Sequence record: PX092659.1
Length of the DNA: 64,000 nucleotides
Direction: 5' to 3' (one strand)
Source: a phage
The notes under the pieces are model-generated. The model did no database searches. It was not told where the DNA came from and saw only the letters and a list, made by a program, of their open reading frames with translations. The position numbers were made by a program, and so were the translations under genes. Below are positions 6,901-53,024 of this stretch, piece by piece. Position 1 is the first letter of the stretch, and each line of letters begins with the position of its first letter.

Positions 6901-7667
6901 TGTCTCTTTCTGACTTAGCTACACAAATTATTAAGGAGCAACTAGATACTGCAGGACGATCTGAAAATAATAAGAATACTGTTGTATATTCTGTTGAAAC
7001 AGGATTAAAAGATCCCACTAGAGATGGTACTATTGCTCAAGTATCCTTTAAATTCTCAAAACCTGTATCCCAAGATCTCCTTAATGTTAGGACCGCTTCT
7101 ATTCTAAAAGCAGTTTCTTCTAGCTTAGATCTAACAGGAGACTTAGGTGCTTTAGAAAGTCTTATTCAAGCAACCGCCGGTAAAAAATCCTCTGTAGGTA
7201 AAAAACGTTCTACTGGTAGAGTTCAAGTAAACTTTGGGGATCCTAGAGATGTAGAAGATGGATATTCTGGTGCAGTAACAGGTGCTTCTGGTCGTTTTGT
7301 CTCAAATAGTAATATGAAGGTTATTCTGGAGTTGGTTGCTAAAGAATACTTAATAAAGGATATGAAAAAAGCAGGAGCTCCACTTAAATTTAGAACTGGT
7401 AGATTTGCAAATTCTCTAAAAATTAAAGATGTTATGCTTAGAGATGCAGAGACTAGTAAAGGTGCTCCCGAACTAAACGTGACGTATAATTATATGGTAC
7501 GCCCATATTCTGTATTTAATCCAGCAGTATCTACATATAGAAGATTATCTTTACGACCCTACCCAGGTGCTAGAAATCCACAAAAACTTATTGGTGAGGC
7601 TATAGCAAAAGCTGCAAGAGACCTGATTCACTCTAGATATAAAATCAAGGTTAATCAAGGAACCTAA
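6900..7667 (+). CDS. neck / tail completion protein (p143-like)
   Basis: 255 aa, ATGA-type overlap with upstream gene; synteny only. Confidence 0.45.
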   Translation: MSLSDLATQIIKEQLDTAGRSENNKNTVVYSVETGLKDPTRDGTIAQVSFKFSKPVSQDLLNVRTASILKAVSSSLDLTGDLGALESLIQATAGKKSSVGKKRSTGRVQVNFGDPRDVEDGYSGAVTGASGRFVSNSNMKVILELVAKEYLIKDMKKAGAPLKFRTGRFANSLKIKDVMLRDAETSKGAPELNVTYNYMVRPYSVFNPAVSTYRRLSLRPYPGARNPQKLIGEAIAKAARDLIHSRYKIKVNQGT

Positions 7668-7670
7668 TAA

Positions 7671-8156
7671 ATGGATCATAGAACAAGTATTGCACAAGCT
7701 CTGGTTGACCGTATATCTAAACAGTTGGATGGTTCTCAACCTGACGAATATTTTAATAACCTATATGGAAACGTTTCTCGTCAAACTTATAAATTTGAGG
7801 AAATACGAGAGTTTCCTTATGTGGCAGTTCATATCGGAACTGAAACTGGGCAGTATCTTCCTTCAGGCCAACAGTGGATGTTTTTAGAACTTCCAATCCT
7901 GGTGTACGATAAAGAGAAAACAGACATTCAAGAGCAACTTGAAAAACTCGTAGCGGATATAAAAACCGTCATTGACACAGGTGGAAATTTAGAATATACT
8001 GTTAGTAAACCTAATGGATCGACCTTCCCATGTGAGGCAACTGATATGATCATTACATCAGTTAGTACAGATGAGGGTCTACTGGCCCCATATGGTTTAG
8101 CAGAAATAAATGTAACAGTGAGGTATCAGCCTCCACGTAGGTCACTTCGCAGATAA
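7671..8156 (+). CDS. tail terminator protein (p142-like)
   Basis: 161 aa, located immediately upstream of tail tube gene; size equals T5 p142. Confidence 0.5.
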   Translation: MDHRTSIAQALVDRISKQLDGSQPDEYFNNLYGNVSRQTYKFEEIREFPYVAVHIGTETGQYLPSGQQWMFLELPILVYDKEKTDIQEQLEKLVADIKTVIDTGGNLEYTVSKPNGSTFPCEATDMIITSVSTDEGLLAPYGLAEINVTVRYQPPRRSLRR

Positions 8157-49044: not shown

Positions 49045-49643
49045 AACAATACTCCTGTGTTGGAAATGGAATAAGTTTTCTTTAGGACTATTCAGAAAGA
49101 ATAGAACAACTGTTACTGTCAATTTCTCAACAAATTAATTGCAAATACTGAAGTGGGGTGGCAACTTCCACTTTCACGCTGCGCTGCTGCCTCATTATAC
49201 CGCACAAATCCTTGAGGATGGCCGCTAAGCCAGATTTGCTCACCTAATGCTTCATATACTAGCTCATACTAGATGCAATATAACTTACAGAATCACGTCT
49301 CGGTAGTTTTTCACTCCTCCCATCTCACTTCACAACCACCTCATACTAGGTTGCTTCGAGGCCTTACCAGGGTTCCTATGGGACGCAGATCGCTAAGTAT
49401 TCTATTAACTATTTGCTTAAAAACTAACACGTAACAGTTAAAACAACCCTTAATGGGGCAGCCTAACTGTTCCGTATCGCGGATTGTAAACAAGAAAAAA
49501 CTTTTTCGTAAAGCTCTAGCAACGTACCTTATGCAGCTATTTACGGGTCATCGATTCCTCTCGCCGTAAATCTCTTGTCAGCTTCACTAAGAAAAATTAG
49601 TAAAAGATCAATTTTTACTAATGTCTCTCAATTCAATATAAAT
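49045..49643 (-). other. long promoter-proximal noncoding region (candidate structured leader, ncRNA or replication origin)
   Basis: No ORF of 60 aa or more on either strand; lies between promoter (-10 at 49644-49649) and origin-binding gene start; contains CTAGTATGAG-like decamer x3 and hairpins. Confidence 0.4.
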
Positions 49644-49704: not shown

Positions 49705-49740
49705 TTGAGCACAGAGAAAACCGAGCCAAAATGACTCGGT
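49705..49740 (-). terminator. intrinsic terminator
   Basis: minus-strand ACCGAG-UCAUUUUGG-CUCGGU hairpin followed by UUUCUCUGUGCU; immediately precedes next promoter. Confidence 0.55.
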
Positions 49741-49748
49741 TATACGGA

Positions 49749-49943
49749 TTAATCATAAAAAAGACCACGAATAGTATTAGCAAATTTAAGTATAATAGCG
49801 CGGTTTGAGCTACTTAACTTTTTAATATCGAAAGTGGGATCAGTCAAATATCTCGCCATAAATTTTACTTGTTTAGCTGAAAGTTGACCCTTATTCCACT
49901 TTTTAATTTTACCATAACATACCCAATATTCTTTATTCATCAT
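49749..49943 (-). CDS. hypothetical small protein
   Basis: 64-aa basic ORF at end of early small-gene operon. Confidence 0.35.
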   Translation of the reverse strand: MMNKEYWVCYGKIKKWNKGQLSAKQVKFMARYLTDPTFDIKKLSSSNRAIILKFANTIRGLFYD

Positions 49944-50325
49944 TTAGTCCCGGAACATAGATCCCAACACGATTTAATTGTTCTTTAGCTTCTTTGAGAA
50001 TATCTGGAGTGTACTCCCAAATATCATCTTCCACCTGTAAAAGATGTGGCGAACAACCGTCATCAGGCACACGACATATGGCCAAACCACGTGGATGGAA
50101 CAAAGAGAAATTTAGGGCAACAATCAAGCCCATAGCAGACAATTCATTCCAATCCAATTCCCATTCCCTGGCATATCCAGACAGGAAAATGCCAATGCAT
50201 GGATCATCTATTTGCTGCTCCGGAAAAGTGAAGGAGGCTTGTCTTACCCCCAACCAACGTTGTAGCAGCTTCTCCGCACGCTTCACCAAACTAGGATCAA
50301 TCTGACGCCAGTATACTTGTTCCAT
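49933..50325 (-). CDS. hypothetical protein, paralog of 50335..50763
   Basis: 130 aa; shares PCIG...W.ELD...MGL(I/V).ALN..LF.P...W.Y(S/T)P...G..(I/V)PGL pattern with upstream neighbour. Confidence 0.45.
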   Translation of the reverse strand: MEQVYWRQIDPSLVKRAEKLLQRWLGVRQASFTFPEQQIDDPCIGIFLSGYAREWELDWNELSAMGLIVALNFSLFHPRGLAICRVPDDGCSPHLLQVEDDIWEYTPDILKEAKEQLNRVGIYVPGLNDE

Positions 50326-50334
50326 TATGCCTCC

Positions 50335-50763
50335 TTAGGCAGTTAAACCCGGAATTTGATAACCAAAACGGCGAAGTTTTTGGATACCATCATTTACTTC
50401 TTCCGGTGAGTAAGACCAACCATAACGTTCATTAACCTGAAAACCAGGAGATTCACTAGTTTTATAGTTAACAACGAGGCGATGCTTAGCAGGCATAAAC
50501 AGCTTATAGTTTAACGCAAAAACTAAGCCCATTTCATCTAACTCTTTCCAGCCGACAATTTCTTCAAGACCATCCTCTACCTGCACAATTAAACCAATAC
50601 AGGGAGCCTCATCAATATCATCTTTAAAAGCAAAGGAGATTTCGTTATTCTCACACCATATTTTCAAAGAGTTAATAGCCTCATTATACAGGCTAGCTGG
50701 GAGAGTACGCCAAAAGTTAACCAAAATTGGGTTAGCTTCTTTAGAGAGTACATTATTGAACAT
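50335..50763 (-). CDS. hypothetical protein, paralog of 49933..50325
   Basis: 142 aa; same conserved motif series as downstream neighbour. Confidence 0.45.
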   Translation of the reverse strand: MFNNVLSKEANPILVNFWRTLPASLYNEAINSLKIWCENNEISFAFKDDIDEAPCIGLIVQVEDGLEEIVGWKELDEMGLVFALNYKLFMPAKHRLVVNYKTSESPGFQVNERYGWSYSPEEVNDGIQKLRRFGYQIPGLTA

Positions 50764-50765
50764 AT

Positions 50766-51272
50766 TTACACCTTAAATTGTTGTAAGGATTTACACATTT
50801 CAAGATCTGGGCTAAATTCTAGCATATAGCTAACAGCTTTTAAATCTTGAAGATTTATCCCAGTCCTACCGTTGACTATAACTGTTGGATACTGATACAT
50901 CATAGCACCCGCATCATCAAGTACACACCAATGTTTGAGCTTATACTTTTCAACGAAACGAAGAACAGAATTACCCCTAGATAATCCACCTCCAGTAAAA
51001 TCCGTTGTACCAAGAAAACGATCGATAAGACCTAATCTGGTCATAATCTGAACGTTCTCCATCTCATTTCTAACAGAGAACCAAGATGATACTCCAACAA
51101 TCATTATCGGAGAAGGACGAATAAAGTCCTGAAAAGCCTTGAGAAGCGGTTTGAAAACCCAGTCACTTCCAAAGAAAATCTTTTCATCATCAGGTGCATG
51201 ATGGTGGGAGATGCTCGAATTGAGCACCCCATCAATGTCTAGAAAAATAATCGGAGTATTACTTATTTCCAC
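50766..51272 (-). CDS. HAD-superfamily phosphatase-like protein (possible nucleotidase)
   Basis: 168 aa; N-terminal motif I FLDIDGVL (DxDG), downstream VLDDAG-like motif. Confidence 0.5.
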   Translation of the reverse strand: MEISNTPIIFLDIDGVLNSSISHHHAPDDEKIFFGSDWVFKPLLKAFQDFIRPSPIMIVGVSSWFSVRNEMENVQIMTRLGLIDRFLGTTDFTGGGLSRGNSVLRFVEKYKLKHWCVLDDAGAMMYQYPTVIVNGRTGINLQDLKAVSYMLEFSPDLEMCKSLQQFKV

Positions 51273-51441
51273 TTTTGTCCCTTTCTAAGAACGTATCATA
51301 CTCAACCGTATCAACATATATGACACCATAGTCATCGGATTTATAGTCCATTTCCCACAGCTCACAGCGATAGCACCAACTACCGTCCGCCCATACAAAT
51401 ATATCATCAGGGTGTGCATACACAGATTTAATTATGGACAT
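51259..51441 (-). CDS. hypothetical small protein
   Basis: 60-aa ORF overlapping both neighbours by 14 nt; ATG start. Confidence 0.3.
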   Translation of the reverse strand: MSIIKSVYAHPDDIFVWADGSWCYRCELWEMDYKSDDYGVIYVDTVEYDTFLERDKSGNK

Positions 51442-52255
51442 ATTTGTTCCCCGGCATATAAGGCCTACCCTCTAGATGAGCTTCTACACGAGCAATAAAA
51501 TCAGGGTCACTGAAGGCATCTACAGCCCCTTTACCCCAGTAAGGGATACCGCGTTCTTCCAACTGGTACATCTCACTACGAGTCATGCCTTGATAGCCAG
51601 GTTCCGCTGCTAGGGCATTATCATAGTAGTTAACAACCATTAGCTTGGCAGCAGTAAGGTTAAGAATAGGAAATAATTCCCAGTAGAAGTTAATTACTTG
51701 GTTAGAGCAACCAACCACAATGATCATATCTTGACTGGTAATACCATCAAAAACATTGTACATTTCTGTATATGCTGGAGCATGCTCACCAAAGAAGATG
51801 ACATTAGGTTTAACCCATTTATAGTCATCTGGGTCAATAGAGTTATACCCAACATCAATAATTCGTTTATTACTACTATTGTAGCTATCAGCTACAACAA
51901 CCTCCTTTAAGTATCCATGAATGTGGAGAATATCATTATGGGGAACACCAGCACGCTCAATAAGGTCATCAACGTTAGTAGTCAAATTTACTACTTGACC
52001 TGGGTATTGTTTATACCACTCACCAATACGAAGATGCGCAAGGTTAGGTTCAACAGTTTTTAGCTCTTCACGACGCTTGTTGTAAAACATATGGGTTTTA
52101 TGATAAAAATTACCACGAAAGGCATGAATATTACATACTTCTTCTAGATCATAATCATCCCACAATGCTTTACCACTAGCAGTATCAGTACGAAAGGCTC
52201 GTACACCACTTTCAACGCTCAAACCCGCACCGCTAATAATAATTAATCTACGCAT
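51428..52255 (-). CDS. Sir2-family (sirtuin-like) NAD-binding protein lacking zinc ribbon
   Basis: 275 aa; sirtuin motifs ISGAGLSVESGVRAFR (GAGxS...G(I/V)xxFR), TTNVDDL (TQNxDxL), catalytic His in LHIHGYL, VIFFGE, IIVVGCS; no CxxC zinc-binding pairs. Confidence 0.65.
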   Translation of the reverse strand: MRRLIIISGAGLSVESGVRAFRTDTASGKALWDDYDLEEVCNIHAFRGNFYHKTHMFYNKRREELKTVEPNLAHLRIGEWYKQYPGQVVNLTTNVDDLIERAGVPHNDILHIHGYLKEVVVADSYNSSNKRIIDVGYNSIDPDDYKWVKPNVIFFGEHAPAYTEMYNVFDGITSQDMIIVVGCSNQVINFYWELFPILNLTAAKLMVVNYYDNALAAEPGYQGMTRSEMYQLEERGIPYWGKGAVDAFSDPDFIARVEAHLEGRPYMPGNKYVHN

Positions 52256-52469
52256 TTTTCACCTGTTCTCTGAAGTTTTGCCCAATACTGTCTAATAGCT
52301 CAGCTAATTCTTTATTGCCTTTCTCCATTAAGGTATTAGCAATAACTTCTAGCATAGTAGCGCAGGATTCAACACCATCCTTATAGCCAGTTTCCCAGTG
52401 CTGCATTAATGCGTTTTCCAAAGCGGCGTTTAAACCCTTATCTGGTAGTATCGGCTTCAAGAATGCCAT
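52248..52469 (-). CDS. hypothetical small protein
   Basis: 73 aa; ATG 52469 with strong SD GAGGAG; overlaps upstream ORF by 32 nt. Confidence 0.4.
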   Translation of the reverse strand: MAFLKPILPDKGLNAALENALMQHWETGYKDGVESCATMLEVIANTLMEKGNKELAELLDSIGQNFREQVKNA

Positions 52470-52641
52470 AAAGTTTCTCCTCTAATTCCATAACACGATT
52501 TTCATAAGAGGCACGCAACTTTTCAATTGCCAGTGCACGCACCGTAACCTCATTAGAATTAATAGCTAATTGGGCCAGATCTTCTGTTTCCATACGTCCG
52601 TTGTAAATTAAGCGATATTTAAGATGTTTTACGTTTTTCAT
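52438..52641 (-). CDS. hypothetical small protein
   Basis: 67-aa ORF with predicted helical C-terminus. Confidence 0.35.
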   Translation of the reverse strand: MKNVKHLKYRLIYNGRMETEDLAQLAINSNEVTVRALAIEKLRASYENRVMELEEKLYGILEADTTR

Positions 52642-52650
52642 TCTTGTTCC

Positions 52651-52932
52651 TTAGTTCTGTACTGTAAATTCATTCTTATCACAGTGAGCATAATAATACC
52701 CATACATACGATAAATCTTCACAGCCTTAGTAGACCCCTTCGATTCTTCGTAATCAATCCAGAGCCACTTGTCTTTACCTACATAATGTACCCGAAACTT
52801 CTTAACTTTCTTATCATTCCATGTTGCAACAACACGACGATAATCAAATCCGCCCAACCAATCCAGAGCTTTACGTTCTTCACTAGGCTCTCCAAGATGG
52901 GAGACATCTACTTTAGGAAGCAACTCGCTCAT
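52651..52932 (-). CDS. hypothetical protein
   Basis: 93 aa; first gene after promoter, SD GAGAGGAG. Confidence 0.45.
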   Translation of the reverse strand: MSELLPKVDVSHLGEPSEERKALDWLGGFDYRRVVATWNDKKVKKFRVHYVGKDKWLWIDYEESKGSTKAVKIYRMYGYYYAHCDKNEFTVQN

Positions 52933-52989: not shown

Positions 52990-53024
52990 ATAAAATAAAA
53001 GCCAGGTCGACTAGCAACCCGGCT
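52988..53024 (-). terminator. intrinsic terminator after nrdD
   Basis: minus-strand AGCCGGG...CCUGGCU hairpin (one G-U pair) followed by UUUAUUUUAUUU. Confidence 0.6.

What the first reader, a model, noticed from the sequence alone, without database searches (positions are those of the whole stretch)
49933..50763. Tandem paralogous gene pair of unknown function
The adjacent 130-aa and 142-aa proteins share an extended motif series (PCIG, W-ELD, MGL(I/V)-ALN, LF-P, W-Y-(S/T)-P, (I/V)PGL at the C-terminus), indicating a tandem duplication followed by divergence.
Basis: seen in the sequence. Interest (0 to 1): 0.42.

Follow-up and report, generated by a model that had tools for sequence, protein, structure and literature searches.

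The report
Ancient paralog pair in T5-like phage
Two neighbouring early genes of a T5-like phage are real, ancient duplicates (the known hypothetical genes T5.106 and T5.107), members of a catalogued phage protein family, DUF7415, whose function nobody has determined.

Summary
On the minus strand, 50335-50763 (142 aa) and 49933-50325 (130 aa) encode paralogs: 31% identity over 124 residues, BLASTP E 2e-19, z = 28 against shuffles. The window is a T5-like phage, and the genes are orthologues of T5.106 and T5.107 (94-95% identical). Both belong to Pfam DUF7415 and PHROG 2502, function unknown.

The duplication is old. Klebsiella T5-like phages carry both genes in the same order with one-to-one orthology, and dN/dS is 0.06-0.09.

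The C-terminal lobe is a ~53-aa domain that also occurs alone or fused in P2-like prophages and T4-like phages, in unrelated genome positions. Divergence is asymmetric: the T5.107-type copy keeps the canonical signature (66 bits), while the T5.106-type copy has decayed (26 bits).

Function remains unknown. My best guess, at low confidence, is a non-enzymatic, acidic binding module that acts early in infection, with the two proteins working as a heteromer. A published knock-down screen gives T5.107 a marginal fitness effect.

Overall this is an ordinary, already catalogued feature.

The parts
50335..50763 (-). 142-aa protein, orthologue of T5.106 (upstream paralog), DUF7415 family
   Evidence: ORF. 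93.7% identical to T5.106. Pfam DUF7415 120.8 bits. PHROG 2502 at 3e-62. AF2 pLDDT 88.3, pTM 0.82. dN/dS 0.065-0.084.
50566..50727 (-). N-terminal lobe of the 142-aa protein (about residues 13-66): strand, helix, beta-hairpin; carries W-R, W and PCIG
   Evidence: Secondary structure of the model. The equivalent half of the 130-aa paralog passes the Pfam DUF7415 threshold on its own; this protein has two Pfam stretches, the best at residues 15-62. My own profile comparison with the canonical domain is only marginal.
50404..50565 (-). C-terminal lobe of the 142-aa protein (about residues 67-120): degenerate copy of the canonical DUF7415 domain (FMP instead of FHP; R and G of the signature lost)
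   Evidence: 26.3 bits against a profile of single-domain family members only. hhalign against the canonical alignment E 1.9e-35 for the pooled lobes of both paralog groups.
49933..50325 (-). 130-aa protein, orthologue of T5.107 (downstream paralog), DUF7415 family
   Evidence: ORF. 95.4% identical to T5.107. Pfam DUF7415 107.6 bits. PHROG 2502 at 3e-61. AF2 pLDDT 92.2, pTM 0.86. dN/dS 0.061-0.088. T5.107 called 'Fit', marginally, in CRISPRi-ART (PMC11879866).
50167..50325 (-). N-terminal lobe of the 130-aa protein (about residues 1-53)
   Evidence: Pfam DUF7415 57.8 bits when scanned alone. Secondary structure strand-helix-strand-strand.
50005..50166 (-). C-terminal lobe of the 130-aa protein (about residues 54-107): well-preserved canonical DUF7415 domain (DWNELS..GL..LN..LFHP.GLA..R.P..G.SP.LL...D.WEY)
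   Evidence: 65.9 bits against the profile of single-domain members only. Pfam 54 bits when scanned alone.
50326..50334 (-). 9-nt spacer with GGAGG Shine-Dalgarno between the two genes (close coupling)
   Evidence: Sequence. The same 9-nt spacing occurs in T5. The genes overlap by 4 nt in the Klebsiella phage.
49719..49741 (-). Intrinsic terminator that ends the early operon containing the pair
   Evidence: 10-bp stem plus T-run. Conserved in T5 and fp01 and annotated as a terminator in T5.
50766..52932 (-). Upstream genes of the same tightly packed operon: three small ORFs (52651-52932, 52438-52641, 52248-52469), Sir2 (51428-52255), a 60-aa ORF (51259-51441) and a HAD_SAK_2 phosphatase (50766-51272)
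   Evidence: ORFs with gaps or overlaps of no more than about 10 nt. Pfam SIR2 7e-25 and HAD_SAK_2 3.9e-19. Terminator-like site after nrdD at 53000-53024. T5 annotation places a promoter and terminator around T5.100-T5.107.

Best explanation
SHOWN. The two genes are the T5.106 and T5.107 orthologues of a T5-like phage (Tequintavirus-type). They are ancient tandem paralogs of the DUF7415 / PHROG 2502 family. They are co-transcribed at the end of an early operon (small ORFs, Sir2, HAD phosphatase, pair, terminator) that lies between nrdD and the origin-binding helicase gene. Both are under strong purifying selection. Each protein is small and acidic (pI 4.6-4.7) and has a confident two-lobed alpha/beta model: strand-helix-hairpin twice, then a C-terminal helix and a conserved G-x-x-I/V-PGL tail. 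The C-terminal lobe is the canonical ~53-aa DUF7415 domain, which also exists as stand-alone 60-100-aa proteins in many phages and prophages of gamma-proteobacteria. The downstream paralog keeps that domain's signature. The upstream paralog has lost much of it, and this holds in two distant phage lineages.

INFERRED. The domain is a non-enzymatic binding module, and stand-alone versions probably homodimerise into the two-lobed shape. In T5-like phages the two paralogs probably work together as a heteromer in which only the T5.107-type lobe retains the ancestral binding surface and the other lobes serve as scaffold. The complex acts early in infection by binding a conserved host or phage macromolecule. 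The target is unknown. I rate the descriptive part at about 0.95 and the mechanistic part at about 0.35-0.4.
For: Paralogy.

Identity with T5.106/T5.107 and synteny.

Family membership.

Age of the duplication and one-to-one orthology.

Presence in essentially every enterobacterial T5-like genome in the collection, two copies in every listed record: Salmonella 271, Escherichia 129, Klebsiella 82 records, against 267/130/81 for the neighbouring helicase gene.

Purifying selection.

Tight coupling and operon structure.

Fold and confidence.

No enzyme-family, PDB or defence-model match.

Acidity.

Stand-alone and fused versions of the canonical domain.

Asymmetric retention of the signature in both lineages (65.9 and 50.1 bits against 26.3 and 8.9 bits).

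Knock-down of T5.107, but not T5.106, scored as mildly deleterious in a genome-wide T5 screen: -2.90, KS p 0.0215, against -3.28, p 0.167 (PMC11879866 supplement).
Against: No direct evidence of heteromer formation.

No target is known.

The fitness call for T5.107 is marginal and uncorrected for about 160 genes. The screen also missed clearly essential genes such as the primase and T5.108.

Homology between the N-terminal lobe and the canonical domain rests on the Pfam model and the repeated secondary-structure pattern. My own profile-profile tests gave E 0.26 (strict) and 0.017 (permissive, collinear over 63 columns), and an iterated HMM found nothing significant.

The strongly conserved polar residues (N, S, H-P, R, G-x-S, D-G, W-x-Y) could equally reflect a catalytic or ligand site.
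Confidence: 0.4

Rival explanations
1. Accessory factor of phage DNA-precursor or replication metabolism, for example an adaptor or regulator attached to ribonucleotide reductase, dNTP-handling enzymes or the replication initiator, rather than a host-directed binder.
For: In T5-like phages the pair lies between nrdD and the origin-binding helicase gene.

Stand-alone family members are inserted between nrdD and nrdG in Jiaodavirus T4-like phages and between nrdA and nrdB in a viral contig (L011).

Fusions exist to dATP/dGTP pyrophosphohydrolase (2 proteins) and thymidylate kinase (1 protein).

The gene is adjacent to Nudix in Slopekvirus and to the gpA replication initiator in many P2-like prophages.

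Most 'Fit' genes in the T5 screen are replication genes, and T5.107 is among them.
Against: The same domain also sits between head-completion gpL and tail gpX in Pseudomonas P2-like prophages, and near portal/MuF, helicase and methylase genes elsewhere.

P2 itself lacks it. No copy lies within about 7 kb of the helicase gene in Proteus and Vibrio T5-like phages, which have the same replication genes.

None of 63 viral loci had HAD, Sir2 or NrdD homologues nearby.

Spaces between RNR genes are common landing sites for unrelated small genes (own knowledge).
Confidence: 0.25
2. Anti-defence protein (anti-CRISPR-like or other immune inhibitor): a small acidic inhibitor that blocks a host immune complex by binding it.
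For: The protein is small, acidic, expressed early and has no enzymatic signature.

The family occupies variable 'moron-like' slots in unrelated phages, including the P2 region downstream of gpA next to Old/Tin-type genes.

One GenBank record labels a family member 'anti-CBASS protein acb1'.

Against: There is no sequence relation to any PDB chain, including Acr and Acb1 entries.

The domain is unusually well conserved across distant phages (61% mean column identity) and is fixed in all enterobacterial T5-like genomes, unlike typical fast-turnover anti-defence genes.

No aca-type regulator is adjacent.

The marginal fitness effect was seen in a laboratory E. coli strain.
Confidence: 0.2
3. Small-molecule binder or sponge: a dimeric or pseudo-dimeric pocket that sequesters a nucleotide-derived metabolite or signal (for example an NAD-derived product of the neighbouring Sir2/HAD enzymes, or an immune second messenger).
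For: Many invariant polar and aromatic residues in a 53-aa domain (N, S, H, R, D, W, Y).

Neighbourhood with Sir2 and a HAD_SAK_2 phosphatase in T5-like phages.

Fusions to nucleotide-handling enzymes.

The size and acidity resemble known phage sponges (own knowledge; not tested).
Against: No fold or sequence similarity to known sponge families such as Tad1, Tad2 or Acb2 appeared in PDB searches.

The Sir2/HAD neighbourhood is not kept outside T5-like phages, and the Klebsiella phages lack the HAD gene.

The conserved residues sit at helix caps and turns, so they may be structural.
Confidence: 0.1
4. The similarity is compositional or accidental, or the ORFs are not real genes.
For: None found.
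Against: z = 28 against shuffles and E 2e-19. Conservation in more than 500 genomes. dN/dS below 0.1. Confident structure models.
Confidence: 0.01

Closest known systems
Phage T5 genes T5.106 and T5.107 (hypothetical proteins YP_006934, YP_006935)
   Same: 93.7% and 95.4% amino-acid identity. Same order, the same 9-nt spacing and the same flanking genes and terminator.
   Different: In the window (and in phage fp01) an extra 64-aa ORF follows the pair before the terminator, and there is only one copy of the small ORF between Sir2 and HAD.
Pfam DUF7415 (PF24187) / PHROGs 2502, 3954, 33705, 1812
   Same: Both proteins match DUF7415 far above the gathering score and match PHROG 2502 end to end. 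Their C-terminal lobe matches the stand-alone members (PHROG 3954).
   Different: Most family members carry a single canonical domain, alone or fused. The T5-type proteins add an N-terminal lobe and a C-terminal helix and tail, and they come as a diverged pair.
P2-like prophage early-region proteins (Orf83/DUF5405-type fused to DUF7415, e.g. Enterobacter L004 7701-8174)
   Same: They carry the same canonical domain and are encoded in an early operon next to the replication initiator.
   Different: They have a single domain fused to DUF5405. P2 itself has only the DUF5405 part. Other P2-like prophages place the gene in the late operon or downstream of gpA.
Anti-CRISPR AcrIC4 (PDB 8dfo chain M)
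   Different: Sequence identity is 14% and it gives no sequence-profile match. The score is below significance, and no functional or genomic link was found.

Membership tests
Pfam DUF7415 (PF24187) | Match to the family HMM above the gathering score (27 bits) | tested here: met
   107.6 bits (130 aa) and 120.8 bits (142 aa), two stretches each. For the 130-aa protein, the halves scanned separately give 57.8 and 54 bits.
PHROG 2502 | Full-length match to the family profile | tested here: met
   E 3.2e-61 (residues 1-129 on profile 4-134) and 3.2e-62 (residues 11-142 on profile 2-134).
T5.106 / T5.107 orthologous groups | Reciprocal best similarity and conserved gene order | tested here: met
   94-95% identity to the respective T5 protein against 31-32% to the other paralog. 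Same neighbours.
Internal repeat (two DUF7415 domains per protein) | N-terminal lobe detectably homologous to the C-terminal canonical domain | tested here: inconclusive
   The Pfam model hits both halves and the secondary-structure pattern repeats. Against that, pairwise alignment is at chance. hhalign gives E 0.26 strict and 0.017 permissive. An iterated lobe-1 HMM finds no canonical domain.
Anti-CRISPR AcrIC4-like | Significant fold or sequence similarity to AcrIC4 | tested here: not met
Anti-CRISPR AcrIC4-like | Inhibition of type I-C Cascade | not testable with these tools
   Needs a plaque or interference assay.
Acb1 (anti-CBASS 2H phosphodiesterase), as one GenBank record labels a relative | Sequence or fold similarity to solved Acb1 structures; about 150 aa with catalytic His motifs | tested here: not met
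'Exonuclease', 'tail tube protein', 'tail protein' (labels in some GenBank records) | Match to a nuclease or tail-protein family; location in a structural module | tested here: not met
   Only DUF7415 was found in Pfam, and nothing in NCBIfam. The genes lie in an early operon next to replication genes. The labels vary between near-identical records.
Known anti-phage defence proteins (PADLOC) | Match to a defence-system model | tested here: not met
   No hits at E <= 1.

The most novel reading that the evidence does not exclude
DUF7415 is a structurally new, widespread phage effector domain that binds one highly conserved gamma-proteobacterial target, either an immune component or a core replication or nucleotide-metabolism protein. 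In this reading T5-like phages have turned an ancestral homo-oligomer into a fixed hetero-oligomer of two duplicated genes, in which only one of four lobes keeps the binding surface.
Probability: 0.2. Interest if true: 0.6.

Novelty: already known. Interest (0 to 1): 0.3.

Why it matters
As it stands, this is a correct but routine observation. The pair has been annotated in T5 since 2005 as hypothetical proteins, and both genes are filed in the same Pfam and PHROG families.

The residual value is as a well-defined piece of phage 'dark matter'. The family has a 53-aa domain with an unusually conserved signature and confident structure models without solved relatives. It is present in T5-like, T4-like and P2-like phages, and one published hint suggests T5.107 contributes to T5 fitness. 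Finding its binding partner would assign a function to hundreds of phage and prophage genes. It would also give a clean example of a homo-oligomer replaced by a duplicated, asymmetrically decayed heteromer.

Tried and rejected
1. Sequence searches of the PDB with the full-length and domain profiles found nothing.

3. PADLOC and NCBIfam gave no hits.

4. Literature searches for DUF7415, PF24187, the PHROG ids and T5.106/T5.107 in main texts found nothing. P2 orf83/orf91 and T5 early-gene searches were not informative. Only the CRISPRi-ART supplement mentions the genes.

6. A conserved partner gene downstream of stand-alone DUF7415 genes does not exist. The immediate neighbours are heterogeneous and unrelated to either lobe.

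7. A general link to Sir2, HAD or NrdD was not found in 63 viral loci. Sir2 itself is far more widely distributed than the pair.

8. The first genome-contig scan used a single protein instead of the alignment and returned only one locus. This wasted the only scan of that collection.

9. The weak MicF Rfam hit next to the pair was rejected as a terminator hairpin artefact.

Full report
**What is there.** The region holds two minus-strand ORFs of 142 aa (50335-50763) and 130 aa (49933-50325). They are separated by 9 nt containing GGAGG and lie in the same frame. BLASTP between them gives 31% identity over 124 residues with a single gap, E 2e-19. A Smith-Waterman score of 158 compares with 27.8 +/- 4.6 for 2000 shuffles, z = 28. 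The N-terminal and C-terminal halves each contribute (z = 13 and 14). The observation and the 'tandem duplication plus divergence' reading are therefore correct.

**Identity of the genes.** The window is a T5-like phage: 3.5 kb around the pair is about 95% identical to Escherichia phage fp01 and matches 450 phage records. The two proteins are 93.7% and 95.4% identical to T5.106 and T5.107, with the same flanking genes. Both match Pfam DUF7415 (120.8 and 107.6 bits; gathering score 27) and PHROG 2502 end to end. Both families have unknown function. GenBank labels for near-identical proteins ('exonuclease', 'tail tube protein', 'tail protein') are mutually inconsistent and unsupported by any family match.

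**Operon.** The pair closes a tightly packed minus-strand operon, with gaps or overlaps of no more than about 10 nt. It starts after a terminator-like site downstream of nrdD (53000-53024) and ends at a conserved intrinsic terminator (49719-49741). It contains three small ORFs, Sir2 (51428-52255), a 60-aa ORF, a HAD_SAK_2 phosphatase (50766-51272), the pair, and in this phage an extra 64-aa ORF. T5's own annotation places a promoter before T5.100 and a terminator after T5.107. Downstream lies the origin-binding helicase gene.

**Age, conservation and selection.**
- A tblastn search with the 142-aa protein finds 524 phage records, nearly all covering the full length, with two places in every listed record.
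- Counts by host genus (Salmonella 271, Escherichia 129, Klebsiella 82) match those of the neighbouring helicase gene (267/130/81). The pair is therefore fixed in enterobacterial T5-like phages.
- In Klebsiella phage P5010 the first gene is closest to T5.106 (35%, 5e-24) and the second to T5.107 (37%, 1e-23), with weaker cross-matches. The duplication predates the split of these lineages, and gene order has been kept.
- The Proteus (Novosibvirus) and Vibrio (Thalassavirus) T5-like phages I examined carry the helicase gene but have no DUF7415 within 7 kb. The pair is therefore not required for the T5-like lifestyle as such.
- dN/dS among the window, T5 and fp01 is 0.06-0.09 for both genes.

**Structure.**
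- AlphaFold2 with family alignments gives confident models: 142 aa at pLDDT 88.3, pTM 0.82, and 130 aa at pLDDT 92.2, pTM 0.86.
- Both show the same order of elements: strand, long helix, beta-hairpin; strand, broken helix, beta-hairpin; a C-terminal helix; and an ordered tail ending in G-x-x-I/V-PGL.
- Both proteins are acidic (pI 4.6 and 4.7).

**Domain anatomy.**
- An exhaustive profile search found 156 relatives at E <= 0.001. Most share only profile positions about 56-110, which is the C-terminal lobe.
- This is a ~53-aa domain with consensus IDWNELSxxGLIxRINxEILHPLGLAxxRxPxTGxSxGALVAxDGxWEY and 61% mean column identity among 34 diverse members.
- It occurs as stand-alone 60-100-aa proteins in Pseudomonas, Aeromonas, Vibrio, Klebsiella, E. 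coli and other prophages, and in T4-like phages.
- It also occurs fused to dATP/dGTP pyrophosphohydrolase (2 proteins), DUF3850/ASCH (2), thymidylate kinase, Cox, DUF551, PGDYG and a ClpX zinc finger (1 each of 79 scanned).
- Pfam's model also hits the N-terminal lobe (57.8 bits when scanned alone), which suggests each T5-type protein is itself an internal duplication.
- I could not confirm that independently. Pairwise alignment is at chance. hhalign gives E 0.26 in strict mode and 0.017 in a permissive but fully collinear alignment. An iterated HMM of 62 N-terminal lobes does not find the canonical domain.
- The repeated secondary-structure pattern favours duplication. I rate it likely but unproven. 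The C-terminal helix and tail weakly resemble the start of lobe 1.

**Asymmetric divergence.** I scored the lobes against a profile built only from stand-alone members.

| C-terminal lobe | Score (bits) |
|---|---|
| T5.107-type, window | 65.9 |
| T5.107-type, Klebsiella | 50.1 |
| T5.106-type, window | 26.3 |
| T5.106-type, Klebsiella | 8.9 |

The T5.106-type copy has lost the H-P, R and G positions of the signature. The same asymmetry in two distant lineages indicates that the downstream gene conserves the ancestral surface while the upstream gene has drifted towards another, probably supporting, role.

**Genomic contexts of the family.** They are heterogeneous:
- in P2-like prophages, directly upstream of the gpA replication initiator, fused to a DUF5405/Orf83-type domain, although P2 itself lacks the domain;
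- downstream of gpA near DUF3850 and Old-type genes;
- between head-completion gpL and tail gpX in Pseudomonas;
- between nrdD and nrdG in Jiaodavirus, and between nrdA and nrdB in a viral contig;
- next to Nudix in Slopekvirus;
- near portal/MuF, helicase or methylase genes elsewhere.

There is no conserved partner gene and no general link to Sir2, HAD or NrdD.

**Experimental hint.** No paper in the library names DUF7415. The CRISPRi-ART genome-wide knock-down of T5 (PMC11879866) lists T5.107 among 17 'Fit' genes and calls it 'of entirely unknown function'. The values are modest: -2.90, KS p 0.0215 for T5.107, and -3.28, p 0.167 ('Not Fit') for T5.106. The background is about -3.5 to -4.5 and strong hits reach +2 to +4. 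Essential genes such as the primase and T5.108 were missed. This is weak support that T5.107 matters in a laboratory host, and it fits the asymmetry above.

**Interpretation.**
- Shown: a real, ancient, co-transcribed paralog pair of a catalogued family, with a distinctive fold and asymmetric decay.
- Inferred, at about 0.35-0.4: a non-enzymatic binding module that acts early in infection. The two proteins form a heteromer that replaces an ancestral homo-oligomer, and the T5.107-type lobe provides the conserved binding surface. The target is unknown.
- Rivals: an accessory role in dNTP or replication metabolism (0.25), supported by RNR-operon insertions and enzyme fusions but contradicted by late-operon locations and by the absence of a copy near the helicase gene in Proteus and Vibrio T5-like phages; an anti-defence inhibitor (0.2), supported by moron-like distribution and the weak AcrIC4 resemblance but contradicted by high conservation and clade-wide fixation; a nucleotide-ligand sponge (0.1).
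- Chance similarity is excluded.

**Verdict.** The finding is correct, but it describes an already annotated and catalogued feature of T5-like phages. The function is still unknown. Interest is modest (0.3), with some upside if the conserved domain turns out to target a specific host factor.

Noticed in passing
window 50766-51272 (-): The 168-aa protein just upstream of the pair is a HAD_SAK_2 phosphatase by Pfam (3.9e-19, full length). RefSeq T5-like records (T5.105 and its orthologues) label it 'Sir2 (NAD-dependent deacetylase)'. The PHROG carrying that label covers only its C-terminal half. This is probably an annotation carry-over from the real Sir2 two genes upstream.
   Followed up: partly
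window 49749-49943 (-): A 64-aa basic ORF (pI 10, PHROG 29527) overlaps the 3' end of the T5.107-type gene by 11 nt and sits before the operon terminator. It is present in fp01 and this window but absent from T5, as an indel of about 190 bp.
   Followed up: partly
window c. 49431-49499 (-): A 69-nt non-coding block in the leader of the origin-binding helicase gene is identical in T5, fp01 and this window, while its flanks diverge. It folds into a stable hairpin (-23.1 kcal/mol, z = -3.2 against shuffles). It may be a regulatory leader or a replication-related element.
   Followed up: partly
window c. 49500-49596: An insertion of about 97 nt lies in the same intergenic region relative to both T5 and fp01. 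It contains a short inverted repeat (TTTACGG...CCGTAAA).
   Followed up: no
window 51259-51441 (-) versus T5 T5.103/T5.104: T5 carries two adjacent small ORFs of PHROG 5116 between Sir2 and HAD, which is another tandem pair. This window and fp01 carry only one.
   Followed up: no
window 49713-49800 (-): A weak Rfam MicF match (33.7 bits against a gathering score of 79, E 0.015) overlaps the terminator hairpin. I judged it a chance match.
   Followed up: yes
L011 1872-2285; L006 3001-3243: Stand-alone DUF7415 genes are inserted inside ribonucleotide reductase operons in two unrelated phage lineages: between nrdA and nrdB, and between nrdD and nrdG.
   Followed up: partly
L090 7001-7210 (Pseudomonas asiatica P2-like prophage); phiCTX 7542-7718: In Pseudomonas P2-like prophages a 69-aa DUF7415 gene sits in the late operon between head-completion gpL and tail gpX. 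In the phiCTX record no feature is annotated under the match.
   Followed up: partly
L005 3001-3258 (Klebsiella phage Roth27): An 85-aa DUF7415 protein (PHROG 3954) is annotated 'anti-CBASS protein acb1'. No sequence or fold evidence supports that label.
   Followed up: yes
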